Source: Nageia nagi (taxonomy: Eukaryota > Plantae > Pinophyta). From it: a stretch of DNA of 64,000 bases. This document shows positions 15,711-61,815 of the stretch, one piece after another (within the stretch, counting starts at the first letter, position 1; each line of letters begins with the position of its first letter). The notes under the pieces are model-generated. The model saw only the letters and a list, made by a program, of their open reading frames with translations, had not been told where the DNA came from and searched no databases. The DNA lies in the NCBI GenBank assembly GCA_050084985.1, contig JBITNC010000002.1, forward strand, positions 11,222,001 through 11,286,000, written 5' to 3'. The translations under genes and the position numbers were made by a program.

Positions 15711-16557
15711 GACCATACCCCCTCCATTTTGCTCACCTCTCATTTTTCATCCTTATGCTGCCCAAATTTTTGAGAATTTGAGAACCAAGTGAGAAAAGAA
15801 GCCATTTTTCTAGCCTTGGAGGATTTTTCAAACACTTAGCATCTTGGCCATTTACCCAAACTCCATTGAAATTCGAAATCCAAGCATCCTCCATGCACAT
15901 GAACTCCATTTTTTCCATGTTTTGAGGATTTTTTCACAAAACCCCTTTTTCAAACCCTCAAACACTTGAAAATTTATTTTTTCAGATTTCAAGTTTGATC
16001 AATTTTTTTTGGATATTATCCATGTGATCAACCTTTATTTCCAGCTAAAAACCATAAAAAAATTCATAAGATCCAAGATCTGAGTGCTCAAAATCCTCAT
16101 TTCTTAAAAAAAATTCAAAAAAATCCAAAAAAATTTCAGAAAACCCCAAAAATTGTTTCTGAAGTCCGTTTTGGCCATTTCAAAGCCTGAAACACCTTCC
16201 CCATTCATTCCCCATCCATCTAAAGGTGTCAGAACTTGATTCCAACACCATTTGCCAATTTTGCCAAATTTCACCACTTTTTCCTGTTGAAAAAGAAAAC
16301 TTTTTGAGAAAAACTTCAAAATTCTCCAATCATACTAATTTTTTGCCAAGGCATTCCCCTTTGAGGCAGCTACCTTTGTGTCATCTTAAACTCACCCAAA
16401 AGGCCTTGAAAATTGCAAATTACAACACTTTTCGATGATGGCACACTAAAACGCCAAAAAAAATCCAAATTCTTCAGAAACCCGTCTTTGCCTACCTACA
16501 AAGTGCCATAAGCTTCCCAGGACTCTTCTAACTCTTGTCCTCTTAGAAAGGGACACA

Positions 16558-19500
16558 ATGGCGTTAGTTGCTCAGAACATCAAAGACCAAAAGCAGAGAA
16601 GGCTCACAATGGACAGTCTCATCATGCTCGAACACACAACAAAGCCAGTGATGCCTGCCGCAAGAATCATAGACCAACTAAGTGAGATTGGGGACACAAA
16701 TTGTAAGTCTCTCAATCCAATAAAAACTATAATGAAAATCCAAGCATTGGATCCAGCTTCGCTAGTAAAGGACACTTTGAAAACCTCTTTCCTAGTAACA
16801 GCTTCTATGGTGCCATTTGCCACCCCCTTCCCTGAGCTATGTTACGAGTTAGGAAAGCATTGTGATATTACAAATCGAAGACTCCTCGACAAAAGGACCA
16901 AAGTAATCATGGACTTCACTGAGGAAGGAATAGAGAGCGCTTTCGCTTGGAAAAACGAAGGCCAATCATACAGCATATAGGACTCCTTAAGGTTCTACAA
17001 AAGTCTAAAGCCCCCAGCTTATTTGATTAGAGATTTGTTGGCTGATGACCGCAAGCATCTCACAGGGAGAGCCTTAGCAACGCCAAACAAAGGAGACTTC
17101 TATCCAATAGTCTCCATACTAATATTAATGCTTTCTAGGGTAACCAGACCAAAAGACGACACCAAATTCTGGTTGGAATTTGCAAGGTTTATAAAGCCAA
17201 TCAGCATTGTTAGAGGTGTAAGGTGGAGTAGAGTAATTAGCAATTGCCTAGCTCAACAACTGAAAAATGTCCAGAAGAGCAAAAAATTCTATATGAATTC
17301 CTACTTGGTTTATCTACTCCTTCAAAGTAGGGAGAGGGTGACCTCAATCGCCAATACTAAGTATCTATATGACCCCACACACCTAGTGTGGGAAAACTAC
17401 CCGTTGTTCTTTGTTCATAACAAGTGGAGCGATGGAAATTAGAAGATGATGACCAACGGTTTTGAAGGCAAAATTTACGAGGAGATCATGGGCAGAGCCA
17501 ATGTACTTAGAATATCAAATGAGGCTATTGCTGCTATCAAAGGACATGAGGACTTCTTTGCAGAAGACATAGAGTTCACCTACCTTAGGGTCTATGGATC
17601 CAAAAAAGCCCCTTATAGGCTACCCCGTTACGCAAGTGATCGCATCATCCTTATGGAATTTTCAAGACACTTGCTAAACGTACACAAGGTATGGCTAAAG
17701 AAGGCGGCGACCACTTACCAATTGCCTATCGTCATTAGGAATTATGAGTGCACCACCTGATGACAGATTGAAAATATTAAACAAGAGTTGGCGTTGTATG
17801 AATTCCTGACCGAAGTAGCTGCGAATCATTATGATCCCGATGGAGTGATTGATGCATTCTTCCAAAAGTCTTGGAGCTCCTCATATCCACACTAGTCCCT
17901 TAGTAGCATCGAGAGGTACAGGAACATTCAAGATGCCTTGCAGGTTCAACGAATTCATAAGGAGCTGAAAAAAGAACAAAAACAACATGAAGCCAAAGAA
18001 GTCACCAAGTTAAGAGCCAATGCACAAGTCACCGCACCCCCGAGCCACGAATATGTTATTCCCATAATATCCCCTTCAGTAACCCTGGCTCAAGGACAAA
18101 ACGGGCAGTATGCTACCAATAGCATCCCCGAACAAACCATTGAAACAACTGTCACATGTACGAGGAATGAAATCCTAGACCTCAGACAAGCAGGCCTGAT
18201 CTCTCAACCATTCAAACACTTGCAGAAAAAGATAAATCTCCCACAAGGTTTGAACTGGAGTGGTATGCGCCTGAATCAAAAACCCTGCACATCATCATCC
18301 AGTTCCGATAAATATGGATCGAGTGACTCGTCAGGACTGATGAAGAGATGGAATTTGCTGCAGTCATCAACACCAACATGGAGATAAACCAAGATACTGC
18401 CTTTGAGCGGGTCCACACTGATCTTTCAATAGATATCCTTAGCGAAGGCAATCCCTAAGTCGATATGATTGTAAAACAAGCAGTAGGAGCAAGTATCCCA
18501 AAACCCGCTCCTTGGAAACAGGCGTCGCAAACACCACCATCTCGGAGGACCAAAACAACATCAACTCAAAAGGGTACTTCAAGACCCAAAATGAGGAAGA
18601 AAATGAAGAACAAAGGAGAAAAAGAAGAAAAGTAGAGCATGACGTCGAGATCATCGAAGACGGAGAGATGGTTACCTTCATAAAACAACCTATGGAACCC
18701 CGCTTCGACATGGCTGCAATGATGGCCAATTTGACTTCAAATCATCCTTGCGAAGAAGATTCCGAAGATGAAAATGAGGAACTTCAGCAGATTGATACTC
18801 TTATCACCATTGTAGGAAAAGTCACCTATAAGGACAATCTCTACTCAAGGAAAAACAAGGTTGGTACCGGAAAGTTTGCCCTCACCGTCAAGACCAAAGA
18901 GGCCCCTACAGAGATTGTTGGCCCATTGGGAATGGAGCACAACATCATCACAAATGCATGGGCATTGAGGGAATCTAGTACTATTGAAGTTAGAGAACCG
19001 AGAGCTGAAGAAGATAGTGGCGAGGCAGGAAATGATCGACAAAGAAGTCAGGGCTGCTAATTTGACAGTTGAAGTCATCAAAAAGCAAGTTAACTTAAAT
19101 ACTAGAATCACCACCCTAAAACAAGGATGGACAAAGAAACTTATTGAGGCCATCAAAGCACTCCACTCAAGCATGGTAAATTTTTATATTGGTAAATTTT
19201 TATTTTGAGGAGGGGTCGCATTCTTAGGCAGAGAAAATAGACTAGTTGATCATTAGATGGAAGAATGGGTGCCCTACAATGCTAGACCTACGGAGAAGGG
19301 CCACCCATCATCCTTTCGTGCTAGATTTTTCCATAGATTGGTTCCAACTATACGATTACTTGTTCTATATCAAAGCCAAGTCCATCGACTTCATATACAC
19401 TAGAACCCAACTTAAAGCCGTCATCAGTAAACAGGCGAAGGAATTCGAATCCTAGGTACCCTTGTTTGAGGAAAACGGTAGCATTAAGGAGTATATGACA

Positions 19501-32529: not shown

Positions 32530-33499
32530 CTGTATCCAACATTTATTATTAATCGTTATAAAAGATACTGAAAAGATATTAAAACATCACAATAATCTCA
32601 TAACTTTCTAAAGTCTAGATTGAAAATCATCACTTTACAGAAACTAAACTTTAAATACCAGGGAGCAGCCATAATTTTTAAGAACATATAACAGGACAGA
32701 ACATAGACGTTACTTTTGAAAAGATGGGAAACAATACATGCCTAAAAATTGGTATGAAATACAGTGTCCCCCAAGTTGGGAATAAACGCCCAAAGAAAGC
32801 TGCATATATCGGCATGGTTCAAAAAGCATCAAATCTAAAATCAAACTAACTTCAGGTTAATGACCTGTAAGGATCAGCCCATCCTCAATCTAGAAGACGA
32901 GCTTAGTATATGATTAAGCAAGCATTAGTAATCAGTAATGAAATGTAAAAGTTTGATTTTAGACTATAAGGCAACACAACCAGGGTTTTTTTCAAGTTCG
33001 ATTCATCGTAAAATGGCTATTTTCAGGATTTCTAAAATAATTTGAGTAAAATATTTTTCTAAATAGCCAAAATTTTATAATAGGAAATTTTGTTTACTGG
33101 TTAAATAGCAAAAATGTAAAATCATTTAAAAAAATGAAATTGAAATACACATCTCCAAGAAAGTAAAAATTAAAATTAAAATAGCCAAAAAATTATAATA
33201 AAAATTTATTAATCTTAAAAAATTGCCTAAATATTGTAATTACACTATTTTATATTGTAGAAATAGTCAAAATTTAATAAATATTATTTATATATTTCCC
33301 TTGAAATTTGAAAATCAACAAAAGTTAAAGTCTCGAATCCCTATATAACTTTGAAAAATTTAATTTAAAATAAAAAAGAAAAATTATTAGGCGAGCAACA
33401 AAATTCATTTCCCACATCCTAGCAACCCCTTTTGCATTTAATTATGCAATTTTTCACACTTGGCGATGAAGAGAGGAGGGTCTGCGAGGTGTAATGCCC

Positions 33500-34850
33500 T
33501 ACTCTGCAACCTTTGTGGCATTCTTTCAGCATGTGCCACCATGGAAGCTCTAGTAGAAGGTATGGACTTCCATCAAAGAGTTGAAAATGGCTATCATTGA
33601 ATTGTTGTGGTTGTGAGTGCCCTTATCCATCTAAATCATATATAAATAGATGGAGAAGTAGGTGGCCATAAGACCACCTCCATCGCTTTTGAAGGCAATG
33701 GTCTTTTGTTGTTGGCGTTTTCACTATCAGACAATACCATCACTTACCCACCAAAATGATATGAATATCACTCTCCTACAACTCTATCAATACATGTGAT
33801 TGAAGGACGCAATGCAAATTTTGCAGATACATACTACTCTCTATGCTCTTCAATATGTCTTCAACTCTTGAGACTTACACCGCCAACAATGCCCTTCCAT
33901 AAAAAAATTTAACCTTGCATCCATAAACAAATTTCTGCAAAAAGACTTATCCACATGTATGTCAACTACGGAAGTTTGTAGACGCCCACGAAGTTGTCGA
34001 CTATATGCCTGAATGAACCCCTGCTCATGGAATATGATAATTTCAAGTTACCAAACAATAGCAGCAGTCAAACCAAATCAATTCAACTTTCCAAGCATCC
34101 TCAAAGCATGCACCAAACTAGGCGATTCGCAACAAGGTTTATACATACATCAAAGACTCTCTAAAAGTGGATTTCTATCAGATGTTGTGGTTTTGAGTAC
34201 CTTGGGAGATATGTATGCAAAATGTGGAACCATAGAGAAGGTAAGCACATTGTTTGATAAAATGCCTCATCGAGATACAGTCACATGGACTACAATGATC
34301 GCAAGAAATGCACAAAATGGGTTTTTTGATAAGGCCCTGGAGACTTTTAAGCAAATGCAAATGTCAGATTTAAAGCCAAACTCTGTAACCTTTGCCAACT
34401 TTCTTCCAACATGTGCCACCATAGGAGCTCTTGAAGAAGGTATGTACATCCATCAAAGAGTAGTTGAAGATGGTTTTCCATCAAATATTGTGGTTGTGAA
34501 TGCCCTGATGGACATGTATGAAAAATGTGGAAGAATACACAAGGCCCAGGAATTGTTTGACAAGATGCATGATTGTAGGATATGCACAAAATGGATTTTC
34601 TGAGAAGGCCTTGGAGACTTTTAAGCAAATGCAATTGTCAGGTGTAAAGCAAGACTCCGTAACCTTTGCCAACTTTCTCCCAACATGTGCCACCATGGGA
34701 GCTCTTGAAGAAGGTAGGGACATCCATCAAAGAGTAGTTGAAAATGATTTTTCATCAAATATTGTGGTTGTGAATGCCCTCATAAACATGTATGCAAAAT
34801 GTGGAAGAGTACACAAGGCCCGATAATTGTTTGACAAGATGCATCAATAA
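33500..34850 (+). pseudogene. PLS-class pentatricopeptide repeat (PPR) gene fragment, antisense within the host intron
   Basis: SWNMII..., PNQFNFPSILKAC, DMYAKCGTIEK, TWTTMIARNAQNG and NALINMYAKCG repeats, with frameshifts, a stop at 34824-34826 and no E/DYW tail. Confidence 0.85.
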
Positions 34851-35446
34851 TAAATTAATATGAAGAACATCAAGGGAATGATAATGGTATTAATCTCATT
34901 CTTAAATGAATTTATTTGTGCCCAGTTCATTCATTTTTTTATACATATTAAATATTACTATATGCTGTCTCCAACGATCAAATTGGTTTTAAAATACATC
35001 ATTGAACTGTAGAGCTTATTAGTGCTTATAATGTTTATTGTTGAATGCCATAGTTCTTTTAAAAGATTCATTACACATTCACATAGCCTAGGAAAGCTTA
35101 TAACTCAGTATTATTTGTTACAAATATAGATTAGGTGTCAATAGGGTGTAAGCATGTCCATGTTGAAACTTGAGCCATTCAAGATCTAATGTCACCTCTA
35201 TATTGCAAATAAAGGCTGAATTCCCAAGCATAATACAATTATGAAACTTTTTGTTGTATAATCCCAAATTTAGTCATAACATATAGTCATTCTTCAAAAG
35301 AAGACTCTATTGGTTGAAGTGTTTTTGCTATTTAAATTTTGATAACAGAATATTGGCTTAAGGGTTAGATGGGTGCACACGAATGCTAAGACTTTTGATC
35401 CTTGATTTGGGATTTGACCCTTTATGTATGCATATATGTATTTGAT

Positions 35447-36678
35447 TGTGATGATCCAAAATGCAATTTGGATACAAAATAGGCAAATTCACCCTCAATC
35501 ACCTTGACATCAGGCCGATATCCACAACAAACTTTCAAACCCTCAAGATGGCAACGTTAGGGTTAGGGCATCCATAATCCACATGCACAACATTAATATA
35601 CCCACGTCTGGCTATAACATGCAATATTCAATCAACAATACACCACAATGCCGACGTATGATAAATACAAGCATATACAACAATGATGATCCAACGCATG
35701 CACAAAATGAATAAACACAACAATAGTATGAGATCCAATTGCCCTTGGCAGTATACAAATGATATGGAATGATGAAATACAATACCAAACCTAGGAGGGC
35801 TAACGTTGGCCTCTCAGGAGCCAACTAGGGCACAACACAAATATCCTCTAGCTGGAACAATATCAACACCATGGGATAGTACGCTCCCTTAGAACTAGAA
35901 TCCTCTCCATCGAAGGAGCCCTCCTCTGACCTTGAATAACCAAATGAATGGTAGAAGCAATACCTTGAAATACCATCGAGTAGGCGCTGCACCAATGCTG
36001 TAGACAAATAGGATCCCTCAGCCTGAATGCCCTCTAGACATTGCGCCTAGGAAGGTTGCTTAGCATTGCTAAGAATTGTCCTCTGGATGATATGAAAGTA
36101 TAATGATCAAAAGTATATCCAGTAATGAGGCTCCAAGGGTTAATATAGTCTTTTCAGATCTGAATTACACCTCAATGTCATCACCCAATCCCCTCATGCC
36201 CCAATGTTGGCACCTAGAAGTCAATCTAGGCCCAATGTGGGTATTTGGACCTCCCTAATGCTCCACATGGACCCAGGAATGCATGCGTGGGTCTAGGAGG
36301 CACACGTGGTCACTTAGGGGAGAAATGTGGCTCTCAAGGGCCAACATGGGGGTCTAAGAGTCTCCCCAAGGCTGGCGCAGGTGTATTAATGCTCCCAATC
36401 TCAACGTTGGAGCCATTAAGTGCTCATCCTTCCACTAGATGCTAAATAGACCTTAGAATTCCCACAATCATGTATTGAGATCTCCAAGTATAATAAGAAA
36501 CCTAATCTAAATTTAAGAGGGAGACGTCCCACTTGGGACTCATAATGGGGTCCACTGACCCATTAAATCTCCTATCCTAAGTTACAAACATGAACATACA
36601 ATACATTAATAAAATATATTACAAGAGATCCCAATTGGACCTTATAATTAAGTACAATTGTGCAAAGGGGGCATCACA
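35447..36678 (-). mobile_element. Solo LTR, family B copy 2 (1,232 bp), inserted in the OTU-like domain
   Basis: TGTGATG...CATCACA ends and perfect TSD TTGAT (35442-35446 / 36679-36683). Shares blocks (gttagggca, aacgttggcctc, ggagccaactagggcacaa, ggatccctcagcct) with 10014-11381. Confidence 0.85.
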
Positions 36679-37833
36679 TTGATTATGCTCATCTGCAACT
36701 TTTTCTCTTAAGTCTTGACCTAGATTCTTCAAGATGCTATCATCTGGACATGGTTCTTTTCTTTGCACACACAACCCAAAAGCAATGGCTCTGAATAAGT
36801 AGTTTCCATCACCAATCATTTATGACACTACGAGATTTTCATATTCCTCTAAATCCTTACCTGCTTTGTCTTTTCCACATGCATTCCCATTACTCCAAGA
36901 CTTTTCACACTTAAAACAAAGTTGCTCCTTTCTCAACTGATTCTTACTCTTGTGTTTATGTTATGAATTTAGTAATTCTTTAGTAACTTTTTGCTGCGTG
37001 TTTTCCTTATTCTTTCTTTGAGCTTTGCCTTCATGTCTTAAGTTTTCATGAGACCCAGACTTTAGTGGAGATCTAGATTTTGGTGGTGATCTAGATTTTG
37101 GTGGAGAACCTCCCTTACTCACTATGCCATGTAATTGCAAATAGCTTCTGAAAGAAAGATGCTTCCTGAATTATGGAATTTTCTTTGGTACCTGTTATAC
37201 AAATCATCAATTTCTGGAATTCCATTATCCAATGGTTGAATTCACTCTTCTGACTTTTGATTGTCAATTTGGAATTTTTGTGAATTTGAATTTCTTTGTT
37301 GAGGTGTTTGTAATGAAGAATTTTTATTCTAATTTGTTGGTGAAGATTTTTCACTTTGTTTTGTTGGCGTAGTTCCCTTATAGGATGTCTGACTATGGTG
37401 AAAATTATATTGGTCATTTTCTGGAATTGTTTTTAGCCCAAACACTTCATATATTCTATTGCTTATTTCCGCCATAGCTTTAATTGCTTCTTCTTCGAGT
37501 GTTGCCTCTTGTGGATCTATTTCCCAAGTGAGGTTTTTCTTTGGATTTGGTTCTCTTCTCCGCAGATGATATGTGTGCTTGATGGGAGGTCTTTGTTTCA
37601 TAGGAAAACCCAATCAAAGACTAATTTGATGTGAAACTACTGAAAATATTCATTAATAATAGCCGGATTTGTTGGATCTAATAGATATGAAAATAATATG
37701 ACGGGATCTGCAATACCCAAAATCTAAAAACCCTAGATCTGATAAATCTACCCAAAACTCTTGTAGATCTACTCAAAATACTTGTGGATCTATTAGATCT
37801 TATAGATCTCTCCATAGGATGGCAAGATCCAAG

Positions 37834-37843
37834 TCTGATACCA
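37834..37843 (-). promoter_or_regulatory. Primer-binding site (tRNAi-Met)
   Basis: TGGTATCAGA lies one base inside the LTR end at 37845. Confidence 0.8.
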
Positions 37844-40800
37844 TTGTAATGACCCAATTCTGATAATTTTGCAAACCCTAGCACAAAGACTAATTTCTTC
37901 CACACTTAATTCTGATTTACAAAAAATAAAATTCTGATTTATAATTTTTATGCATAAAACTAATTAAAAATCACAAACTAGGGCAAATCACAATAATCTT
38001 TAATAGATCCAAAAGAATATGAAGTACAATGTATAGATCTACTCACAAACCAATAGATCTACAATGCAATGCTTGCAAACCCTTCAAATTTGAATACCCA
38101 AAATGCAATATATCAAATCTGGTGTAGAACACTGTGAATACAACCAATAATGATGGATCTTATCAAATCTGCCCAACAAATGCCTTCAACTGGCTGAATA
38201 CTCAAAAAAGTCACTTTGCTTCTCTCAAGCTAAATGGCCCTTCCGAAAGCTTCAAAATGGATGCAAAGTGCCCGAAAATGCCTCTTAGGGTTAAAAGTTT
38301 GACTTAGAATACTAAGACTGATGCTGGAAACCCTAAAATGTGATGTAGAAGCCCTCTAATGGCTGAATAACAATCTGATCCCTCAAAATGGTGCAATGAT
38401 GCCCTAGCTGGCTGAATACACACTGAATGCTGCACAATTAATTCCAATGAAGTCCAAATGCAAACTCTAGATAGGTTTGCATTCAAGAGAGTTAGGGTTT
38501 TATTTTCGTCTCTCTCATGATCCAAAGGTTTTCATCCCTTAATCAATCTTCTACAAGTTTTCGTCCGCAAAACTAATCTCTCGTAGGGTTTCATCCACAA
38601 GAGAGATGTGATTCAGCTACAAACCAAATTCCACAAGAAGAAGAAATAATAAAACATTCAAGTTATCCAAATGAACACCCCTCACCTTCTTTTATAGACA
38701 TAATGTTCTAATCCTTCGTTGACGAATCCCAAGGTACCCATTATGACTTAAGGCTTAGTTTACAAAAAAAAAAGAAAAATAATTAATGTTATGTCTTCTA
38801 AAACATTACCATTATATCTCCCCCTTTATTATTTAATTATTTTCTTTTATTTTTATTTATTATTTTTACTTTATTAAGCCACATAAAATACCATGCAAAT
38901 AATAGAAAATGCAGACATTACATTATTACCAACATAAATGTTTTAATAAATCAAGTCTTCAAGATTACCAAAGTTACAATTTCATAAAACAAGGTTAAAA
39001 GTAACTAAGAAATTAAATGTTTAAACAATGTGAACATAACAGGAATATATAAATCCAGAGCAAGAACACCCTTACAATTTTATTCATGTAAGTATATAAA
39101 TATCCACGCAAGAGAAGGACCTATTCAAAGAAAATAAGGAGCAAAGATGAATGCCAAAAGCTGGATACCAACTCTAGATACTAGAGTTACCACATGCTGG
39201 TATATTTGTCCTCCTCTCTTAGGATCCTTGAATAACCACCACACCACAATATATATGATTATATACATAGCTCACCTTACCTTGTTCTATTTGACTAATA
39301 CTAGCTCTACAGTGTAAGTTATCTAATTTTTGTTTTGTGCAAGCCAACCATTGCCTCCTATGTCTATATTACTCATTATCCCAAATTACATTGTCCTCAT
39401 GGTTCTCACCCCAAGAACCATTCATACCATAGTCATGACATTCAGATTCGATAAATAATCCTTTGGGTTCAAACTTCAAACTTTTGAAATTCAGCCAACT
39501 GGACAATATTTGTTAAAAGAGAAATAAATTGAAAATGTAAAAGTATACTAGATATATATAACATGCAATAAGTGGCAATTATTCAAGAATCTTCATAGAT
39601 TATTAGACAAAAAACATATATTTGTGAAAATAAGTGATTTTTGCCAATTTTTTAAGCAATCATTCATTTTCATTGACTAGGAGAATATTCAACCACACAA
39701 ACAGAATATTCACAAAACTTTGTGAATATGATCCATGTTAGAATAATTAATACACTAAGAACTTTAAGTATTTAGAATAATTTGGATATTAGTATTAGTG
39801 ATAATGTTGGATAATAATTATATTAGAGTTTTGTGATAGTTCATATATTTTATTACTCTATGGGAATGTACTCCCGAACAAAGGTTACTCTTGACTCTCT
39901 CATTGTCTCTGATATGGTATCAGAGAAGGTTCAAGCATGAAAACCATGGTCTTCCTTGTTGCCATAAGCTTGGTAAAGAGTGTTGCTTGAATTCATTTTG
40001 TGCACCCACAATGTGCCCTCGGAATGATTATTGTGAGATCAGATCTACCGTATTACAAATGCCTACCCTCGAGATGACTATGTTATGAAGGCAAGCAATC
40101 TGCCCATTGTGTTTGAGAAAGCTGGAGCATAAGAAGTTGTCATTCAACCTGCGCTTTAGCAAAGTCTGTAACAATTAGCAACGTGTAACATTGTGAGGAG
40201 CACCCCATATTGGACTGTTTGAAGTTTGATCCAGACCTACAAACAGACTACACGAGCACCTACTTTTGTTTAGCACGTGCGAAGGAGTACAAGATGTCAT
40301 GAACATTGTGTGAAGTATACACAACAACAAATCATTTGAATGCATTCAAAAATTTGGGCATACAAACAAAAGAAACGACATCGTGAATGAGTTTGCCAAG
40401 CAGTGTGTAGAAAACAAGCACAACACCAACATTGGAGAAAGCTACGCATTGCCCTTTCATCCTGCACACATGCCTGCGTAGGGAAGACACAAGTGTAGTG
40501 AAGCCAGCACTTAGATCCCACACTTTCTCTACAGGTTCATGTGATTTGCAGAAGTTTGTTTGTTGTGGAAATGGAACGAAACTTTTCGTTAGCTAATTAT
40601 TTATTTTAGTAACCTCTTTGGTGAACATGTCCAACGCACACAAACAAATTTAATTGAAACAAGTTGATTTGCTTATAATCTTCAGCCCTATCTGCCAAGA
40701 CGTGAAGGAAATGAAGTTTAACACCTAAAAAATGAAATGCAATTTTTCCAACAGATGATTTACTTAAGTAAAGTCTAATCTTTAATTACCCACCTGCCCA

Positions 40801-41339
40801 ATTCTAACTGCCACACGATTAAAACCTAAAATGTTTGATTAAAACAAGTTCGGTCTGTCCAGTAATTCACAAAGGTAACAAAGCTTTCTATTTGACGGAA
40901 TAGAAGGCTGCCCAAAGTTTTTTGCCAAGACATAATATAAAATAATAGAGTCTTAACACTGAAGAACAAAATCAAATCTCTTTATTATTTGACCAAGGTG
41001 GAGTCATGGTGCATTGGTGGAACAACAAACTTGAAACCAAGAGGTCATAAGTTCAAATCTTCATAAAGTTAATATTTTTGACTTGTGCCTGAATTTTTTT
41101 TAGCATATGTTGAAAAAGTTAAAGGTGATATTTTTTGAAAGAAAAACAAATGTTTAATCTTTCAAAATAATTTGATACCTTTGAGGAAAAATTGAAGGCA
41201 GGGGCAAATATTTTTGAAACTACATGAGAAAAAGAGATTTTTCTTGAAGAGTGGTGGTTTAATAATCCAAACCATAAACTATTCAAGTTTGAGAAAGTGA
41301 ACTTGCAAGACAAAAATCGCCCTTCCCACCACTAAAATT

Positions 41340-43020
41340 TTGCTCCCTGATTCTCAAGTTTTGAGAGGAAACTATGTTGCCTAGAAGATGAAGATTCAGG
41401 CAATCTTGGGGTTTGAACGCTTGTGGGAAATTGTTACTGCCATAGAACAGCATCCACAGATGGCTGGTGGAGCCCAAATAAAGTTTGATCAATGCAACAA
41501 AAAGGTATATATAATCATCTTACTTAGCATCTCAGATGATGTTCAACCCTATTGTCGTGACTCCAAAGATGTTGTCGATGCATGGAAAACATTGCAACAA
41601 GTGTTTGCCTCAAAGAATCAAAATCAGATTCCACAATTGCAAAGACAATTACACACTTTGAAACTGAAAGGTGGTGACAAAATGGAGTCCTTGCTTCGTA
41701 GAGTTGTAGAACTTCGCACCTCCCTACAAGCACTAGGAGAGACAATAGAAGATAAGAGCACTCTCGAAGGCATATCACACCTTTGTAATATCATTGAACA
41801 TCTTGAAGCAAACACCTAACTTTGAAGAGTTGGTAAATATGTTGCAAAAGGAAGAAGCATTTCCATGACAATTCAAATGAAGAAGAGAATGCCATGATGT
41901 CCAACAAAATAGGCAAGAAGCCTTTTGGAGAAAAGGGCAAAGGCAAGAATTTCTCAAAGCCCAATAACAAACAGAAGAAAAATTGTTTGATTTGCAAAAA
42001 GGAAGGGCATGAATTGCAAGCTTGCTAGTACAATTCTTTTGCTCAAGGATCTTCAAGCAACAAGAATCAAAAATAAAAAGGACCACCACCCAAGAACCAA
42101 GAGAAGTAGAGAAGTAAAAGACCACCTCAACAAAGACAGCAACAAGGCAATGTTGCTAATGATGTTGAAGAGGACACTAAAAATTTTGCTCTTGTTCATC
42201 AATAACAACCACTTGGTATGTTGATTATGGTGATTCCAAGCACAAGACTGGCCGAAAGGATTGGTTTATTTCCTTGGATGAAAGATCCTATATTGGTCAA
42301 GTACAGTTGGGTGATGACACACCCTATAACATGAAGGCAAGGGAGATGCACAAGTACGTTTTGGGAAGCACAACTATCAAATAAAGGAGGTCTTGTATGT
42401 GCCTAGTCTCACAAAGAATCTCTCGTCTATCAAGCACATGTTGGATAACAACCTGAAAGTGGAATTTGATATTGTGAATGGGAAGAAATGTTGTTTCATT
42501 CAAGACAAATCTAGAGATTCTCACATTGTGGTTAAAGCTTCAAAAGTTGGGTAGATGTTCTTACTTAATGTTATAGCTTCAAACAATCAAGCACTCACTG
42601 ATTGTGTTACGGATGTCACCACTCTTTGGCATCGACGATATGGACACATGAATCCCAATTGATTGGTCACTCTGCAAGAGAGGAATATGGTATGTGGTCT
42701 TCCATCTCTTGTTTCTCCTACTAACATATGTTCTACTTGTATAGCAGATTAACAAGGAAGAATTCCATTTTAGGCTAGCAGAAATCATGTTATAAGACCT
42801 CTTGATCCAATTCATTTCAACCTATGCAAACCCATAACGGCTAGCCACATCGGTCTCAAATATTTCCTACTATTTTTTGATGACTAATCCAAAAAGATGT
42901 GGGTGTCTTGTTTAAAGACAAAAGATGAAACCTTTCAATATTTAAAGGAGTTCAAAGCGCATGTGGAGAATGCTACTAATTGTCATATCCATGTACTCTG
43001 ATAATATCAAGGGGGAGACT
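41340..43020 (+). pseudogene. Copia gag-protease-integrase remnant
   Basis: MKIQAILGFERLWEIV...AWKTLQQVF (UBN2-type gag), a CLICKKEGH knuckle, WYVD protease remnant, LWHRRYGHMN pre-integrase motif, and KYFLLFFDD...KMWV...QGGDY integrase core. RT and RNase H are deleted. Confidence 0.85.
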
Positions 43021-44159
43021 ACACATTATGATAGTTCATATATTTTTTTACTCTATAGTTCTGTAACTCTCAAACACCCCATGTATTTAAGCAGAGTTAT
43101 CAAGTTCGTCGGTTAGGAGCCCAAATCTTGTCCAATCTGCCAATGAGTTCTAGCAGGGTCTGGCTAGTTCCCGTTAGGTTTGTTAGGAAACAATCCCGAG
43201 GAGAAACCGAACATACCCAAGAAAACCCGGACAGAAACACGATTGTAGGCAACTAGAGGCAACTTTTTTGCATTTTTTTAATATATTTTTTATTTGACTT
43301 TGACCAATTCTGACTTGAAAACCCTAAAAGTTACCTCTAAAGCGCATGAAACCTCTAAACTACTTCATTTTTAATATATTTTTTATTTGCATTTTTTTAA
43401 TATATTTTTTTATTTGACTTTGACCAATTCTTGTTCATTTCTTTTGCAAACAACAAATTTTATTCCAAAAGGTTAAGCATTGGTTGAGAGTTGAAGAGTG
43501 ATTGTTAAAGCTTGTACAAGGATTGTATTGTCATTCGTACTCATTTGCAAATGTTCATTGCTTGCCAAGAAAATTGTAGAAAGATTTTTTTTGCAAAGAG
43601 GTAAGTTTTTTTCATTTTTTTCTTCCATTTTTGTTTCAATCTTAAAGTTGAAACTTGAAACAAATTATTTGCTTTGAATTTGTTTATATATGGTTTTTCC
43701 ATTCTTTTATGAATGTATGAAAAATTCAAAAGAGCTAAGTTTTTTCTTGCCATAAGAATCACAATGGCAACTAGTTCTACCAATACAAGTCAACCTAAGT
43801 TCAAAACAGATCCTTATTCTCCTCCATGAAAACATGTTGAAATGATACAATCAATTCCAGGTGGTGGGGTTTACATTTGGAAATGCAATGGATGTGGTGT
43901 TCAATATTCTAGTTCATATTTTTGAATTAAAGCCCGTTTGTGTGGAATACCTAGAAAAGGAATCAAAGCTTGCCCTAGAAAGAATGGTGTACTTATGCCA
44001 TCGAATACAACAGTAAGATATATTATGGAGCAAGAATAAGCAGATGAACGAGACTCCAATAAAGAAAATCAACCCTTACTTAAAAAAAAGATCCAAAGGA
44101 ATACTGCCCACATCTATTCCCAATATCATAGTAGAAAACTATATGTTCAAACACAAAGT

Positions 44160-45011
44160 TGTTAGTCACACAATGACACTGAGAGGAGGGGTGAATCAGT
44201 GTAGTAAATTAATTCCTCAATATTTCAAACCAAAGTAATACAAAATTGAAACCATACACAACAACACACAAATTCTAAAAATACAATAACACATTTAACG
44301 AGGTTCACCAATTTGGTTACATCCCCGAAAATGACTGCTTAGACTTCCATCCAAATCCACCCTTTGCAAAGCACCAACTTCACAAACAATTTGCCAACAC
44401 CCATTGGAAGGAGCACCAACCCCTAACTTTACTAGCACCAACTGGAAGGAGACACCAATCCCCTAATTTACCAGCACCAACTAGAAAATCATAAAACTCT
44501 AATGGAGATAATTAAACCCTATCAAAAAACCCTGAATGGTCTAGCTCATAAAACTCATTATTTGAATGCTTTTGTCCAATCTTTGCAATCTTCAACACCC
44601 TGCACACTCATACACTTCTTGGATCCAACCATCTCTCACACCCTAAAAACAAACCCTTGCTTTTTTGGCCTTTTAAAGCAAGAAAAACGTAATCTAGCCT
44701 CCAAACACCCCCTACACTAACGGGCCTCCAAATCGCCCCTAACCAAAATGCCTTGAATGAAGGTCAAATCTTTAGAAAAGGTAGGTATATTTATATTTGT
44801 TGGAAAGGTCTCTTAGAGGGCTATCTAATGAATAAATAATCAACTCAATTAGATGCCTCTATCAAAATTTATGCCCTTCTAAACATGACTAATACATTCT
44901 CAAACAATTCCACTTACTGTCCACTTACAACATCATGGCAGATACATAATAACTTCACCAATACATGCCCAACAAAGTGTGTTGACAACAATGACAAAAA
45001 CTTGCTCAACA
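44160..45011 (-). mobile_element. Solo LTR (852 bp) inserted in hAT 1
   Basis: TGTT...AACA ends and perfect TSD AAAGT (44155-44159 / 45012-45016). An ATTCACCCCTCCTCT motif near the minus-strand 3' end resembles Sirevirus-like Copia LTRs. Confidence 0.82.
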
Positions 45012-45598
45012 AAAGTTAACAGCCCAATCCCACTACAAACAAAATACCAAGGGGACATTTGGAGATGGCATCTCAAAATGAGAGTAGAGACATTGTCGAC
45101 CAACATGTAGCAAAATGTATTGATGCAAATGGGTTATCTTTCAATGTTGTTTGATCTCCATATTGGAAAGAAATGTTGAGAAAAGTTAATGAAGCTCCAA
45201 AAGGGTACAACGGTCCTCGTCCTCGTTATGAGAAGTTTTCTGGCACCTTGTTGGAGAAAAAGGTCACGATGGTTGAAGATTCTTTTCAGCCCATAAGGGA
45301 TTCATGGATTGAGACAAGTGTGTCCATTGATTCATATAGTTGAAAAGATGCAAAAAATCAAACCTCTATCCATGTCATAGCGGTGTCCCCTAAAGGGAAA
45401 ATGTTTTTGCAAGTCGTGGATTGTGAGGGGCAAGTAGAAGATGGACAATTTATTGTTGATATTCTCATCGAAGCCATTGAGCAAGAGGGACCCCGCAATG
45501 TTGTTCAAGTCATAACGGACAACAATAAGAATTGTAGAGTTGTTGGGTTGTTGGTTGAAGAACAATATTCACGTATCTTTTGGACACCCTATGTAGTC

Positions 45599-48500
45599 CA
45601 TAGTTGTAAAAATCGAATCGGAATCGAATAAAATCGAAATCGACCAATCAAATGATCCGATTCAAATTGGATCCGATTTTTTTCAAAAAAGTGTTTATCC
45701 GATCTTTTCTGATTCCAATTTGCGATTTTTTAGACAAAAAATTGCAAATTTTTTGAAAAAAATGGGCAAAGAATCAGCCAACGATTTTTCAGGAGTAAAT
45801 CCGATTTTTTGGCCGATTCGATTCTTAAAAAAATGCGATTCCCGATTAAAAAATCGGCAAAAAATCGTCTAGTCATCTTGGGCGCGGGTAGAAGGGTTTA
45901 AGTCACCAAAAAACTCAATCATTTCATTTTGTTTTGCATTCTAGAGCTGAGAGGAGCTGAGCTAACACCATTTTCAACAAGTTTGAAGAGATTCCAAGTA
46001 AGTTTCCAACTTTCCAATGCTTTGTGAGTTTTGATGGTATTTTTTATTTTCTCTTCAAGGCTTTAGCTATTTGTTTTTTTCTTTTTTGTTTGTTTTTGCA
46101 ACTACAAGTATGAGTTCTCCAGGCCGTAGGAAAGATAGGACAGATGTTGCTTGGCCATATATCACAGAGACTAAAATAGCAAACACTTTTATTTGCAATT
46201 TTTGTAGGGAACCTATTGGTGGAGGTATTTACAGAATGAAATTTCACTTAGCAAGAATGGCTAGGAATAATGTTAGACCTTGCCCTAAGGTGGATCAAGA
46301 TGTCTAGAGGCAAATGGTTGCCATCATAGAAGTCAAGGCAGCAAAGAAGCAGGCAAAGAAAAGAACAAAATCAGAAATTGCCAAATGGTTTCCACCAACT
46401 CCCACTCCGCCTCCACCTCCAGGGTTTCCATGGATAGGTTCTACCTAGAGCCATTTCTTTGAAGAGGGCGATGCTAGTGGTAGTGCAATAGCTGCAACAA
46501 CAAAACAAACCCCCACCAGGAAGATGAGGAATCCAGCAAGCTCTACTAGTGCAATGCGGTGTGATTTTTTTGCACCTCGTGGTGGCCAAACCACACTCAA
46601 TCAATCATGGAATAAAGATAAGTTTGAGGAAGCCAGAAAGGCAATTGCAAATTTCTGGTATTACTCTAATCTTTCCTTCAATGTGGCGAACATGCCATAT
46701 TGGGAGTACATGGTTAGAGCTATTGCTGCTTGTCGTGTTGGATTCAAAACACCAACTTACAATGATTTGAGAGGTCCTATGCTGGATGTAGCTGTTTTAG
46801 ATTGCAGGAGGGTTCTTGATGAGCAAAAGAAGATTTGGAGAAGAAAGGGTTGCAGCATTCTTAGCGACGGTTGGACCGATACACGAGGGAGAACTTTGTT
46901 GAACTTTTTGGCTGCTTCTTCAGGAGGTCTGGTATACTTGAAGTCAATGGATGCATCAGGTGAAATAAAAAATAGTGATTATTTATTTGGCCAGTTACAG
47001 ATAGTCATTGAGGAGGTGGGGGCTGAGAACGTTGTGCAAGTATATTTATTATTTTTTATCTATTTTGTTTCAGTTTATTTGTGCATGTTCTCATTTTTTT
47101 ATTTAAATTTTTAATAATTAAAATTTAATTCATCTAAGTTTAAAACATAACTTTAAATTTTATGTTGTGCACATTGTAGGTTATCACGGATAACACTTTT
47201 GCATACGTTAAAGCAAGGGAAACGATTGAGAAAGAATACCCTACCATATTTTGGACTCCTTGTGCCGCACATGTCATCGACTTACATCTTAAGAACATTG
47301 GAAGGGTAGATTGGATCAAAGAGGTTGTGGAAACAACAAAGAATATCACCAAATATATCTACAATCATGCTTGGGTCCTCCATTTAATGAGGACAGATTT
47401 CACAAATGGAAAGGGTCTAATACGTCCTAGTAAATTTTTTATTATTTCCCAGCTTTCAATTTATTGCATTTATTATTATTTTATATTCTATTTTTTTTAT
47501 TTTTCATTAAATTAAATTTATGAATTTTGCATGCAACCACTACACGATTTACAACATCATTTCTTACATTGCAGAGTATTTTTAATACTCGAATTGCATT
47601 GAAACAAATGTTTGTGAGCAACAAGTGGATGGTGTCAAGATATGCACGTGAACCAGAGGGCAAGAATATCTTTAATTGTATCTTTGATGATGATTATCGG
47701 ACGGATGCCCTTCAGATTTTGAGGGTATAATTTTATTTCAATTTTCAACTTTTTCACTTTTCTACTGTTTGAAATTCTGAATCATTCCATATTGAATTGA
47801 TTAAATATTAATTCATTAAAATTGTTATTAATTTAGTAGTATAATTGATAATTCACTTTGCAAATTACAGAGCCCTTAGTGAGGGTGTTTTGCCTTGTGG
47901 ACTCAGAGAAGCCATCCATGGGGTATGTGTATGAGGCGATAGATAAGGCAAAAGAGGCCATATCTGCTTTTTTCGATTATCAAGCATCAAAGATTTCAGT
48001 ACATTTGGGACATGGTTTATTGTAGGTGGTATACTCAATTGCATTAGCCTCTACATGGAGCGGGGATTTACTTGAACCCAAAGTTCTTCTATCCAGACAA
48101 TTTTGATCCATTGAATGGGGAGATTAACGCAGGTATCCAATAGTAAATATTAATCAACTTTGAGGATTTTGCCTTCAATTTTCAACTTAACCTATTGAAT
48201 TTGAATATATGGATTCTGATGGGCATTTAAATTTTGTAGGTCTCCACAAGGATATTAACTGTTTGGTGCTAGATAAGGAGATTAGGACCAAAATTTTCAG
48301 AATAGAGCTTCAAGATTACAAGAAAGCACAAGGCTATTTGTTCTCATCCCCAAAATGTATAGAATCAAGGACAACTCTAGCTCCAGGTAACAAAATGCAT
48401 TTTCAATCTTTTTAAAGTGAATTGCCCAATTAGTAACATCTTGAAAAATGCATATCTTATTTGTTTTTTCTGCTGTTTTTTTTAAGATCTATGGTGGAAG

Positions 48501-49513
48501 GATTATGGCGGTAATACGCCAAATCTTCAAAAAGGTGCCATAAAAATCTTACCCCAACCAGCTAGTTCTTTTGGATGTGAGCGAAACTGGAGCACTTTTG
48601 AGCAAATTCATTCAAAGAAGCACAGAAGGCTCACCCATGAGCACTTGAATGATTTGGTTTTTGTGCATTACAACCTTCGCCTCCGTCATAGACAAATTGA
48701 AGGAACAAGTAATGATGCAATAGAGTTGAATGAGATTGATGCAAGTGATGTGTGGGCTTCATGTTTGAAGGATGTGCCATAAGAGGTTAGAGATTTTGAT
48801 TTCAATTTTCAACTTATAGATTAGCTATTGAATTTGATTTTGAATATATTTTATCAGCTTTTGATGGGCAATGCATTTTGATTTTACAGCCTCAAGATTT
48901 TGATTTCACCTTTGAAGAGTATCAAAGAATGGAAGAACAAGCTCTTGTAATGGGTGAGGAAGCTGAAAGGGTGGCAACGGAAGCTAAAAGGGCCCAAGGG
49001 GGTACATTTGCAGTAGGACCATCACATAGAGGAGATGCTCTTGAAGATGATATTGATGATGATGAACCTCTAATAACAACTAGGTCTAGGGTTGCAAAAG
49101 AGAGATTGTGAAAGGCAAAACATGGATGATAGCTCATAGCAATGTTGTAGTACCAATCACTAGATGAATGTTTTGAATCTTGTGATTTAGATTTTGTTAT
49201 GTCACATTGAAAATCTTTAATGTTTTTTATCCTTGACACTTGACATTCGATATGTAATATTGAACTCTACAATTTCTTTAGTATGCAATGTTGGATATTT
49301 TATGTGTTCTTCTATATGGAATGTTGTCTATTTGATGTGCAATATTCAGATTTAGCTAAGATTGATTTGTTTTAATATCAAATAGGGGAAATTCCTTCAT
49401 TTTTTCTCCATGCCAATTTTATTCGATTTTTTTGCCGATTTTATCCAATTTTTCAAAAAATCAGAATCCTGGAACCAAACGATTCCGATTCGATTCTGAT
49501 ATTTTTAACTATG
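45599..49513 (+). mobile_element. hAT transposon 2 (3,915 bp) nested in hAT 1
   Basis: TIR CATAGTTGTAAAAAT / CATAGTTAAAAAT, TSD ATGTAGTC / GTGCAGTC (6/8), and subterminal CCGAT/ATCGG repeats. Confidence 0.88.
46110..49111 (+). pseudogene. Intron-containing hAT transposase (BED, DUF659, hATC dimerisation) with stops and frameshifts
   Basis: FICNFC...GGIYRMKFHLA, CSILSDGWTD.RGRTLLNFL, ENVVQ|VITDN, FWTPCAAHVIDL, TRFTTSFLTL and CERNWSTFEQIHSKK...LNDLVFVHYNLRL, with GT-AG introns. Confidence 0.88.
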
Positions 49514-55670: not shown

Positions 55671-58599
55671 CTGATTATGATGAACAAATAATAGAATGAA
55701 TCTAGATTTCAGCATGCCGCTTGAACTTTGAAATGAAATTGAGCAAAGAGAACCACAACAGACACTTAATGCGCACGCTAATCTAGCTGATGTTGGAATA
55801 TTGTGATCATACCATGCACCAATTTGCCTGAAACACATTTTGTTGCAACATCTCTAACCCTAAAATCAAAAGCTAAAAGTTAAAAACTATACATACATGA
55901 GAAACAAAAGTAAAAAGGAGTGTAGCCATAGTGGTTATGTTACACTTTAGAGTTTACTATACTATTGTTAGTGACAGTTCCTCATATGTATTTCAATTTA
56001 ACATTTGTGTTTGAATGTTTTAATTGAAAACTATATTTTTGTACCAGCAGTAATGGATATAAAGAAAACTCACAACTGCATTTTTGTACAAATGTTTTTA
56101 TTATAGAATGGATATAGTTATGTTGGAGTTTACTGTACTATTGCTAGTGACAGTTCTTAATAATACTATCAAATATGTATTTGACATTTGTGTTTGAATG
56201 TTCTTACTTTTTAATTGAAAACAATATTTTTGTACCCTTCTATACTGTATTTTTGAAAACCTTAAACAGTATTTGTTGTAACAGCAATAATAGATATAAC
56301 AAAAACCTATATTGCACAAAGTTGCAAGGACAGGTACGACCGAGTATCAAGGGACATGTTTCTAGGATGGAGATGAGTGGCATCCCCCTTGGATAATTGT
56401 AATTAATTATAGAATCCAATGGATTCCCCCTTTTCATATAACTAATTATTTAATTGTGCTTTATTAGTTAGTACTTGGAATAGAAGACATAATGGGCCAT
56501 TGGACCCCACAGTGAACCCCAAGTGGGATGTCTCCCTCCCAAGTGTAGTTTAGTATGATTTAATGTACTTTTAGATCCCAAAATATGATTGTGGGAATCC
56601 CAAGACTTATTTAGCACTTAGAGCATGGATAGTCACTTAATGGCCCCAACGTTGAGATTGGGAGCACTTGTACACATGCGCCAACCTTGGGGAGACTCCT
56701 AGACCCCCACATTGAGCCATGACACCCACGCATGCCCCCTAGATACCCACACATGACTCCTTGACCCATGCATGCCTTCTTACACCCATGTTGAGCTTAA
56801 GCACCCACGTGGAGCATTAGGGAGGCCCAGATACCCACGTTGGGCCTAGAATGACCCCTAGGCACCATCATTGGAATTTGAGAGGTTGGGTGATAACTTT
56901 CAGGTGAGATCCAGATCCAGTTTCACCTATATTAGGCCTTGGCGCATCATTGTTGGATATATAGATTATTGATTATTACTCATACTGTCTAGTGGACAGA
57001 AGTCTTAGTGCAGCATCAGGCAACATCCCTAAGTGCAGAATCTAGTAGGGTTAACAGGCTGAGGGATCTTGTTGATCTACGGTTAAGGTGCAACATCTTA
57101 GTCCATCTAGTGGCATTCCGAGGCCGCATTACTACCATTTAGTTGGTCGCCAAGGTTTGGAAAGAGCTCCTTCGATGGAGAGGATTCAGATTCTAGGGAG
57201 TGAGGTTGTCCCATTCAGTGATCCGTCTGTCCAACATTGATCACATTCATTATGCCCTAGTTGGCTCCTTGGAGGCCAACGTTGAGCCTTGTGTGCCTAG
57301 TATTGTATCATTGTCCATTTTGTATCATTAATACAAGTCGTGGGCTATTGGATCTCATGTTTTTTTGTGCACTTGTCCATATTTGCAACATTGTGATGTA
57401 TTTGATAGTTAATGCATGTATGAGCCAGACGTTGGCATTTGTATGTTGATTGAGCTTGTATTTGGTGCCTATTGGGGGCTTTTCCTTTCCTACCCCTGCA
57501 AGTTGGCAAGTAGTATCGCAGGGCTTAGTGGAAAGACTCCAACACCCGAGTGGTAGGGTGTCACCCCTACCCGTTATGAGGATTGTTCACCTCAAAGGTT
57601 AGAAAGTGAAGGGTGCATGGGCTTACTCAGGTGCTTTGGTAGAGATGCTTTCAGCTATTACCAACTCAAATGAAATTTGTTACTCAAGGACTCGAAGGGT
57701 CTCTCTAATCCAGTGAGGTTGTTTCTCGAAGAGAAATAAAAAAATAAAAGGAGTTTGTTAGGAAAGCTGCACAAAAAATGGAAAAATAAAGAAAAGGGGT
57801 TGTTTGTGAAGAGACGGTGATATATGAATGGGGCTCTAGGGCAATGTTCTCACCGATTAGTGTGAATTTCAGAGACTTGACACGCACGGGTTTGTTCTAG
57901 GTTCCATGCATTCCCAATCCGACTTGTCAGGCAACAACAAGAATACCTCAACAAGGGAAGCTTGAAGCTAAAGCGATGGAAAGCTAGGATAGGATGGGGT
58001 AAGACTCAATGATGGAATGAAGTTCCTAGGTTAAACGACATATGCTAGTTCTCTTGGAAGACACTAATCCAAAGTGAAAACTACAAAACGTTACAACTAC
58101 ACACCACTTAGAACGTTTCGTAGGATCTACAAGCACTCTTTTGTCCACCTTTTAGAAGATTTACAAAATGAACCAAACATTCAAGATAGCATAGAGAAAT
58201 AACATACAATGACATCCATAGTCTCAAATAAGAACATGCTCACTTCAATTAATTGAGATTTATATAAAAATTGCAAAAAAAAAAAGGAAACTTGCAAGTT
58301 TGGAAGAATAGTGTAAGTAGTCCAATTTTGCACAAAATGTCTAATCCCTTACAAATGACCCGAAATGGGCTATATATAGTTTTAGAGCAACTCTAAATGT
58401 TGTCCTAACCCTAATTGCAACTTACGAGAAAATAAAATATGATCCAATCAAAATATGCCACATGGCGTTACAAGATATCTTCCAAGTTGGTGGGAGCACA
58501 TCCTCATCCATCACAAATTTGGGAATTATTAACAAATAAATTCAAGTTTCCAATCATAACTATGAAATAAAATAAAATAAAGTATAACAAGTATTGTGA

Positions 58600-61500: not shown

Positions 61501-61815
61501 ATGGTGACCGACTTCCATGCACAACTCAAGGAATGAAGCTGTGAAAGGGATGAAGGTGCAAGTGGAGAGCTCGGAGAAGAAGACAATGCCTTGCTTTAGG
61601 TCGGTGGAAGGAAGCCCACGAATGCTCTCCCTCATCTGCATGGGGTCTATGTTTTGCCAATCAGTATCTCCGATGGTTGCAAAACCATTCCTCGAGAACC
61701 TGGCCCCTTAGGGAAGGGCTTGTTGTCTCTCAAGAATGGAGATGACACAATCTTGTTTCAACCGCTCGAGGTCCTTAGCAAAATCAAGAGCCGAATTGCC
61801 CTTGAAGGGAGTCAT
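58600..61815 (-). pseudogene. Decayed ~1,070-codon ORF of unknown function inside G2, homologous to the G1 ORF
   Basis: The ATG at 61815 is in frame (one TAA) with the 318-aa ORF 61641-60685, followed by 60684-60481, 60207-, 59319- and 58866-58600. Shared motifs with G1 include IGDT, IMDF...AF.W, FYPIV, KFY(M/L)NSYL, RISN, NHYDPD and DDFE. Confidence 0.82.

What the first reader, a model, noticed from the sequence alone, without database searches (positions are those of the whole stretch)
35130..36960. LTR element with Gag zinc knuckle fused in frame to an OTU deubiquitinase-like domain
Seen, reading minus from 36960: ...KNQLRKEQLCFKCEKSWSNGNACGKDKAGKDLEEYENLVVS*MIGDGNYLFRAIAFGLCVQRKEPCPDDSILKNLGQDLREKVADE, with a single TAA (plausibly from CAA). 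Beyond the solo-LTR insertion (TSD TTGAT) frameshifted pieces continue as GSKVLAFVCTHLTLKPIFCYQ, LYLQYRGD and HGHAYTLL. Established: xLRxxxLCFxCxxxWxxGHxC is the chromovirus-type Gag knuckle. GDGxCLFR...LRxxVADE...SHxLxxPIxVY...GHYxxL are OTU motifs, closest in pattern to plant OTU3/4-like proteins. The catalytic Cys codon here is TAC, one transition from TGC. OTU domains are known in viruses and some LINEs and Helitrons, but I do not know them in the position normally held by the LTR aspartic protease. Inference: a captured deubiquitinase that could protect Gag or counter ubiquitin-based silencing.
Basis: partly seen in the sequence, partly recalled or inferred. Interest (0 to 1): 0.75.

Follow-up and report, generated by a model that had tools for sequence, protein, structure and literature searches.

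The report
Jumping gene carrying captured ubiquitin-removing enzyme
This is a broken copy of a repeated plant jumping gene in which a zinc-knuckle-like motif sits in frame with part of the plant's own ubiquitin-removing enzyme OTU4, likely captured from spliced RNA and likely once used to strip ubiquitin tags from the element's own protein.

Summary
A 1078-bp LTR with a tRNA-Met primer site precedes a decayed ~400-codon ORF (4 stops in 917 nt; 0 of 300 shuffles as low). In it a C-X2-C-X9-C knuckle lies in frame, across one TAA, with the N-half of an OTU domain. That domain is of the plant OTU4 type: 12 of 13 phmmer hits are OTU proteins of that type, and a custom profile scores 47.5 bits. It crosses an inferred host intron site without an intron. 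The fusion is not a one-off: 7 listed contigs from three organisms span knuckle and OTU at 81-88% identity, and up to 12 contigs in one run cover the junction. Weak points: the pieces beyond the nested solo LTR do not beat chance. This copy lacks the catalytic Cys and the knuckle His, and shows no capsid, pol or 3' LTR. The Gag label is recalled. No intact protein was found. Best reading: a likely non-autonomous gymnosperm LTR family with a retro-captured OTU4 that was probably once active. No such case turned up in six literature searches. Activity and selection are unproven.

The parts
37845..38922 (-). 5' LTR, 1078 bp, TG...CA with 7-bp inverted ends; no partner LTR in the window
   Evidence: related sequence in all four runs over the part that was laid
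37834..37843 (-). primer-binding site of the tRNA-Met type, one base after the LTR
   Evidence: tRNA identity of this motif is recalled; tRNA-Met use by chromoviruses and copia per PMC6317226 passages
37128..37601 (-). 5' part of the decayed ORF (ATG at 37601), low-complexity, two in-frame stops, no Pfam match, no capsid domain detected; frame change near 37125
   Evidence: Atlas leads below 0.9 only
36937..37127 (-). basic, Ser/Pro-rich linker in the knuckle frame, with one TAA at 36963-36961
36877..36936 (-). Gag-type zinc-knuckle-like motif, C-X2-C-X9-C, His absent in this copy
   Evidence: same span as the canonical CCHC array in PMC2577118; chromovirus-type pattern recalled, no database hit
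36685..36870 (-). N-terminal half of a plant OTU4-type domain, in frame with the knuckle; TAA at 36822-36820; catalytic position (36801-36799) reads Tyr
35447..36678 (.). nested solo LTR of an unrelated high-copy family, 1232 bp, TTGAT duplication at 35442-35446 and 36679-36683
   Evidence: depth 10-1000 times that of the host element in all four runs
35342..35401 (-). candidate middle part of the OTU domain (THLTLKPIFCY region), collinear but not significant alone; about 13 codons shorter than host OTU4 between here and the N-half
35130..35341 (-). candidate C-terminal OTU remnants in shifting frames; His box not readable with confidence
   Evidence: by eye; not above chance; belongs to the repeat family in runs X1 and X2
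34880..35129 (-). 3' internal remnant; ends against a PPR pseudogene without pol, polypurine tract or 3' LTR

Best explanation
This locus is a dead, 3'-truncated copy of a multi-copy LTR element whose single ORF joins a likely Gag-derived knuckle to a plant OTU4-type deubiquitinase domain that was likely captured from spliced RNA and was probably once an active enzyme. Shown: LTR, primer site, former long ORF, in-frame knuckle-OTU order, OTU4 kinship, and recurrence of the junction in other genomes. Inferred steps: (1) a spliced OTU4 mRNA was co-packaged and joined to the element just behind the nucleocapsid knuckle by template switching; (2) the element lost or never had capsid and pol and was copied in trans by an autonomous tRNA-Met-primed relative, probably a chromovirus; (3) the ~400-residue product bound element RNA through the knuckle and so brought a K48/K63 deubiquitinase to the ribonucleoprotein or helper particle, where it would spare element proteins from ubiquitin-directed turnover; (4) this copy then decayed (stops, a frameshift, loss of catalytic Cys and knuckle His, a nested solo LTR, loss of the 3' end). 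The host is likely a gymnosperm (inferred from TE-packed introns over 20 kb and composition).
For: Former ORF: 4 stops in 917 nt with one frame change versus a shuffle mean of 14.4, 0 of 300 as low; opposite strand and LTR controls not significant. OTU4 kinship. Multi-copy junction: 7 of the 32 contig pieces listed span knuckle and GDG motif at 81-88% identity (2 in X1, 4 in X2, 1 in X4); 9-12 contigs in X1 and 6-7 in X2 cover places 36831-36868, with only about half of each run read. Intron loss: host rows that run into intron-like text break after LRxK and between SHVLQ and MPITV (P0002, P0009, P0018, P0020), and the window is continuous across the first site. Constraint: 11 of 17 host-invariant columns match the conifer protein against 9 of 28 variable ones (Fisher P 0.034), at only 42-49% identity to hosts that are a median 69% identical to each other. 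Arabidopsis OTU4 cleaves K63, K48 and linear chains and needs its Cys (PMC3950621 passages).
Against: No intact knuckle-OTU protein was found among 1.84 billion representatives or in three word-indexed searches. The constraint signal fades if the donor already differed from the conifer protein (P 0.018, 0.076, 0.29 for 100, 80, 60% donor identity at variable columns). The only similar non-host sequence, P0006, also has Tyr at the catalytic position. The C-half is not significant, and no listed contig joins it to the N-half (15 of 96 joints shown). The state of the stop and catalytic codons in other copies was not among the 40 of 1240 differences shown. The knuckle has no database match. Conifer TEs capture exon fragments very often (PMC13477047 section 12), so capture alone implies no function.
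Confidence: 0.5

Rival explanations
1. Passenger capture: the OTU4 retro-fragment landed in frame by chance in a non-autonomous LTR element and was amplified with it without serving any function, like maize Bs1-type transductions.
For: Exon capture by conifer TEs is very common (PMC13477047). All copies seen are 81-88% identical to this one, so old. No intact protein in any search. Constraint test not significant if the donor differed at variable sites.
Against: The frame from ATG through knuckle into OTU was open over 305 codons. Divergence from host OTU4 (42-49% identity) is deeper than copy-to-copy decay, yet core motifs are kept. PMC7264820 states that transduced ORFs are usually in one or a few copies.
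Confidence: 0.27
2. The family is an autonomous or formerly autonomous chromovirus in which OTU4 sits between nucleocapsid and pol (or replaces the aspartic protease), and this copy has lost capsid and pol by deletion.
For: tRNA-Met primer site and knuckle order fit a chromovirus. This copy is truncated, and relatives continue past 35000 (2 contigs in X1, 6 in X2), so what follows is unseen.
Against: No capsid match in any of three frames between primer site and knuckle; no protease or pol match in the ~590 nt after the insertion. Related contigs tile the capsid-less 5' region (36886-37365, 37458-37804), so its layout is shared by other copies.
Confidence: 0.1
3. The family carried a catalytically dead OTU that works as a ubiquitin-binding or decoy module fused to an RNA-binding knuckle.
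For: Both this copy and P0006 read Tyr at the catalytic position and group together in a tree at 91/86 support, unstarred.
Against: The codon lies in a CHG-type context where methylation decay recurs (window CHG observed/expected 0.61). P0006 has no known flanks, ends exactly at an inferred host intron site and may be an exon of another gene; both branches are long, so the grouping may be an artefact.
Confidence: 0.1
4. One-off juxtaposition of an OTU4 retrocopy and an LTR fragment at this locus.
For: No intact protein and no named element were found.
Against: Up to 12 distinct contigs in a single run cover the junction, more than alleles of one locus can give; spanning pieces come from three organisms and two studies.
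Confidence: 0.03

Closest known systems
Plant OTU4 deubiquitinases (Arabidopsis At3g57810; conifer P0003, Wollemia)
   Same: GDG..LFRA and LR.KVADE motifs, helix spacing, 42-49% identity over 45 columns.
   Different: No intron at the inferred host site, host N-terminal extension replaced by element sequence, long branch, Tyr at the catalytic position in this copy, inside an LTR element.
Ginger1 DNA transposons and animal Helitrons with OTU domains (PMC2836005, passages)
   Same: A mobile element carries an OTU domain fused to its own protein; the authors propose a role for the ubiquitin pathway in transposition.
   Different: Those are DNA transposons of animals with OTU on the transposase or helicase; here it is an LTR retroelement of a plant, behind a knuckle, with a traceable plant OTU4 donor.
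Orchid Ty3/gypsy elements with a captured AlkB demethylase (PMC9289625, passages and section 12)
   Same: Family-level fixation of a host enzyme in a plant LTR lineage, read as counter-surveillance.
   Different: AlkB is a separate ORF in autonomous elements and its activity was shown; here the enzyme is fused to the knuckle, no pol is seen and nothing is assayed. OTU is not named in that paper's main text on 121 angiosperm genomes; its supplementary chart could not be read.
TR-GAG and other non-autonomous LTR elements (PMC13570524, passages); maize Bs1 transduction (PMC7264820, first third read)
   Same: LTR, primer site, gag remnant, no pol; host gene capture.
   Different: TR-GAG-like families keep GAG/PROT domains; this one shows no capsid and has a cysteine-protease domain where the protease would be.

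Membership tests
OTU deubiquitinases (PF02338) | Profile match to the OTU domain | tested here: met
   Pfam direct E 0.16 only, but phmmer hits are OTU proteins (12 of 13 with a Pfam OTU match, 11 above the curated cut-off) and a custom OTU4 profile gives 47.5 bits
OTU deubiquitinases (PF02338) | Catalytic Cys in the GDGxC motif | tested here: not met
   Tyr in this copy and in P0006; other copies not visible
OTU deubiquitinases (PF02338) | C-terminal His box and complete domain | tested here: inconclusive
   distal pieces collinear but not above chance
OTU deubiquitinases (PF02338) | Ubiquitin-chain cleavage | not testable with these tools
   needs an assay
Plant OTU4 clade as donor | Best matches are OTU4-type proteins | tested here: met
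   no OTU3 sequence was on hand for a direct tree comparison
LTR retrotransposon | TG...CA LTR with tRNA primer site | tested here: met
LTR retrotransposon | Paired 3' LTR, polypurine tract and flanking target-site duplication | tested here: not met
   no second LTR or purine tract in the window; copy is truncated
Chromovirus (Ty3/gypsy) | RT/RH/INT phylogeny and chromodomain | tested here: not met
   no pol in this copy; lineage cannot be assigned
Chromovirus (Ty3/gypsy) | tRNA-Met primer site | tested here: met
   shared with copia lineages (PMC6317226), so not diagnostic
Chromovirus (Ty3/gypsy) | Gag with capsid and one CCHC array | tested here: inconclusive
   three Cys at canonical span, His absent, no capsid match; lineage-specific pattern recalled
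TR-GAG non-autonomous elements | GAG (and PROT) retained, pol absent, two LTRs | tested here: not met
   pol absent, but no capsid or aspartic protease match and only one LTR
Processed (RNA-mediated) gene capture | Host introns missing | tested here: met
   continuous across the site after LRxK where P0002 runs into intron-like text; intron positions are inferred from protein rows, not from a gene model

The most novel reading that the evidence does not exclude
A gymnosperm LTR lineage gave up capsid and pol, kept only the RNA-binding knuckle, and fused it to a captured OTU4 deubiquitinase kept under selection: a helper-dependent element that carries its own anti-ubiquitin enzyme to its RNA or to the helper's particle, and the first plant LTR element known to do so.
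Probability: 0.3. Interest if true: 0.8.

Novelty: new variant of a known kind. Interest (0 to 1): 0.55.

Why it matters
Why transposons repeatedly pick up ubiquitin and SUMO proteases has been an open question since the Ginger1 and Helitron reports (PMC2836005). Those domains are old and have no clear donor. Here the donor is a characterised plant enzyme (OTU4) and the family has many datable copies, so selection, timing and chain specificity can be tested against the host gene. If the domain was active, it would be direct evidence that ubiquitin-dependent turnover restricts plant LTR elements. If it was a passenger, it is one more gymnosperm gene capture and of modest interest.

Tried and rejected
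Word-indexed protein searches: 0 of 45 candidates (260-2000 aa), 0 of 8 (162-2000 aa), 1 of 33 (25-161 aa, P0006 itself); weak negatives. PDB sequence search: two chance hits. NCBIfam: none. Metagenome scan by peptide: 228 stretches, none confirmed. Metagenome scan by motif: 14 loci, all unrelated OTU genes with no DNA similarity to the window; P0006's contig was not among them. Viral and prokaryote collections: 0 matches. Pairwise BLASTP of two distal ORFs to conifer OTU4: nothing. Atlas on two upstream ORFs: leads below 0.9; the knuckle-OTU stretch has no Atlas result. No RNA holder listed. Runs X3 and X4 have no cover at 35000-35371; not used as evidence. No structure was predicted: a half-domain folded on host rows would be circular. 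P0006 was first taken as a second copy; it may be an exon of another gene, so it is not counted. Rows dropped: P0013 from the C-half profile; P0002 and P0010 from the constraint test. Earlier-findings look-ups by sequence, genome and relatives were empty.

Full report
Observation. The quoted minus-strand peptide is exact. The knuckle-like motif (36936-36877) and the OTU motif (from 36819) share one frame, split by a TAA at 36822-36820; another TAA lies at 36963-36961. Upstream is a 1078-bp LTR (38922-37845, TGTAATG...CATTACA) followed after one base by a primer site TGGTATCAGA. No second copy of this LTR, no purine tract and no pol-like sequence lie in the window. A 1232-bp solo LTR (35447-36678) with a TTGAT duplication interrupts the OTU; it belongs to another family, with relatives at 56384-57453 and 10136-10725. 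The whole element sits, in the same sense, in an intron of over 20 kb of a GDSL-esterase-like gene with exons near 54100, 32450 and 6550. A gymnosperm host is my inference from this architecture; no genome is held.

A former single ORF. From the ATG at 37601 to the insertion (917 nt) only 4 stops are needed with one frame change, against a shuffle mean of 14.4; 0 of 300 shuffles were as low. The opposite strand (46 of 200), the LTR (83 of 200) and the distal region (31 of 200) were not significant. With the distal part the product would be about 400 residues. Pfam finds nothing in any of three frames from primer site to knuckle, so no capsid is detectable.

The OTU domain. Pfam gives only E 0.16 on the 45-residue piece. 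A phmmer search of 1.84 billion representatives gave 13 hits, best E 1.4e-5, all on the OTU part. Twelve of 13 match Pfam OTU and the named ones are plant OTU or OTU4 proteins, including a Wollemia protein. A profile from 11 of these proteins scores the window piece at 47.5 bits; the next unrelated stretch scores 0.7. Identity to 14 host rows is 42-49%, while hosts share a median 69%. Host rows from genomic or mis-spliced calls break after LRxK, after ETEW and between SHVLQ and MPITV, which I read as intron sites; the window is continuous across the first, which points to capture from spliced RNA. The catalytic position reads Tyr; it lies in a CHG-type context, and CHG is depleted across the window (0.61 of expected).

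The distal half is weak. The pieces beyond the solo LTR were tested three ways and none beat chance (10-27% of null stretches score as high in the last two). Both aligners put THLTLKPIFCY on the host SHVLQMPITVY motif at the expected place, about 13 codons short. The target-site duplication shows the two sides were once adjacent, and the distal DNA belongs to a repeat family in runs X1 and X2. I rate the C-half as probable but unproven.

The knuckle. The span C-X2-C-X9-C equals that of the canonical Cys-X2-Cys-X4-His-X4-Cys array (PMC2577118, passages), without a His. It occurs once in the window and in 0 of 100 shuffles, a test made after seeing the motif.

Is it a family? Four public runs hold a small share of the stretch (0.05-0.10). 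Laid at 80% likeness, 7 of the 32 contig pieces listed (18,546 more not shown) span both knuckle and GDG motif: 2 in X1, 4 in X2, 1 in X4, at 81-88% identity. At places 36831-36868, 9-12 contigs in X1, 6-7 in X2 and 1 each in X3 and X4 are counted, with 47% and 56% of X1 and X2 read. X1 and X2 are two organisms of one study and share some loci, so this is two to three studies, not four independent rows. Other contigs tile the 5' ORF, the primer site and the LTR, but no listed piece spans the whole element. Only 40 of 1240 differences and 15 of 96 joints were shown; the stop codon, the catalytic codon and the empty insertion site were not among them.

Function. Against the conifer protein, the window matches 11 of 17 host-invariant columns and 9 of 28 variable ones (P 0.034), but the signal falls to P 0.076 and 0.29 if the donor already differed at variable sites. 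P0006, a 46-residue metagenome ORF, is 48% identical, also has Tyr, and groups with the window at 91/86 on long branches; it ends at an inferred intron site and may be an exon, so I do not count it as a copy. No intact fusion protein was found. My best reading (0.5) is a non-autonomous element whose knuckle tethered an active OTU4-type enzyme to its RNA or helper particle. A passenger capture (0.27), an OTU-bearing autonomous element (0.1), a pseudo-enzyme (0.1) and a one-off (0.03) are the rivals. Arabidopsis OTU4 cuts K63, K48 and linear chains and needs its Cys (PMC3950621, passages), which sets the expected activity.

Comparison with print. OTU domains are known in Ginger1 transposases and animal Helitrons (PMC2836005, passages). 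Six searches for an OTU or deubiquitinase in LTR elements listed no such report; most hits were seen as listings only. 'OTU' has 0 occurrences in the main texts of PMC6317226, PMC9289625, PMC6338049, PMC13570524 and PMC13477047 (also 0 in its two readable supplements). The supplementary chart of rare domains in PMC9289625 could not be read and could hold an OTU entry; subscription journals and Repbase were not searched. PMC13477047 section 12 shows that exon capture by conifer TEs is very common, which lowers the surprise of capture alone. PMC7264820 was read in its first third. Unchecked earlier notes of this scan describe OTU-like domains in DIRS, Penelope-like and animal LTR elements; they suggest recurrence but are no support here.

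Verdict. Real, multi-copy, and apparently undescribed in plant LTR elements; a new variant of a known kind (enzyme capture by retroelements). Interest 0.55; 0.8 if activity and selection are shown.

Noticed in passing
window 54170-54050, 32531-32365, 6610-6410 (minus): Exons of a GDSL/SGNH esterase-like host gene (Pfam Lipase_GDSL_2 E 9e-6 on one exon) with introns of about 21 and 26 kb filled with transposon remains; the element lies in the first of these introns.
   Followed up: partly
window 33480-34850 (plus): Decayed PPR gene with 274-nt internal repeats, inside the same intron, antisense to the host gene and abutting the element's truncated end.
   Followed up: partly
window 35447-36678, 56384-57453, 10136-10725: Three related LTRs of a very high-copy family (69-86% identical).
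   Followed up: partly
window 39830-43070 (plus): Copia remnant with a tRNA-Met primer site at 39915, Retrotran_gag_2 match, and gag-protease-integrase pieces.
   Followed up: no
window 43700-49100 (plus): hAT-like transposase remnant (DUF659, E 2e-31), apparently with introns.
   Followed up: no
window 16450-19060 (plus) and 58600-61707 (minus): Two sets of long ORFs without Pfam match that share a similar motif, probably extra ORFs of a gymnosperm LTR lineage.
   Followed up: no
window 62392-63175: Cluster of short direct and inverted repeats, including a ~165-nt palindrome-like stretch.
   Followed up: no
L001, L003, L009 and L004, L008, L011: Unrelated OTU genes on metagenome contigs, several with transposon-like or animal-like context; not homologous to the window at DNA level.
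   Followed up: no
P0006: 46-residue OTU4-like ORF with Tyr at the catalytic position on a 7.6-kb metagenome contig that could not be fetched; either a second copy or an exon of a pseudo-enzyme gene.
   Followed up: partly
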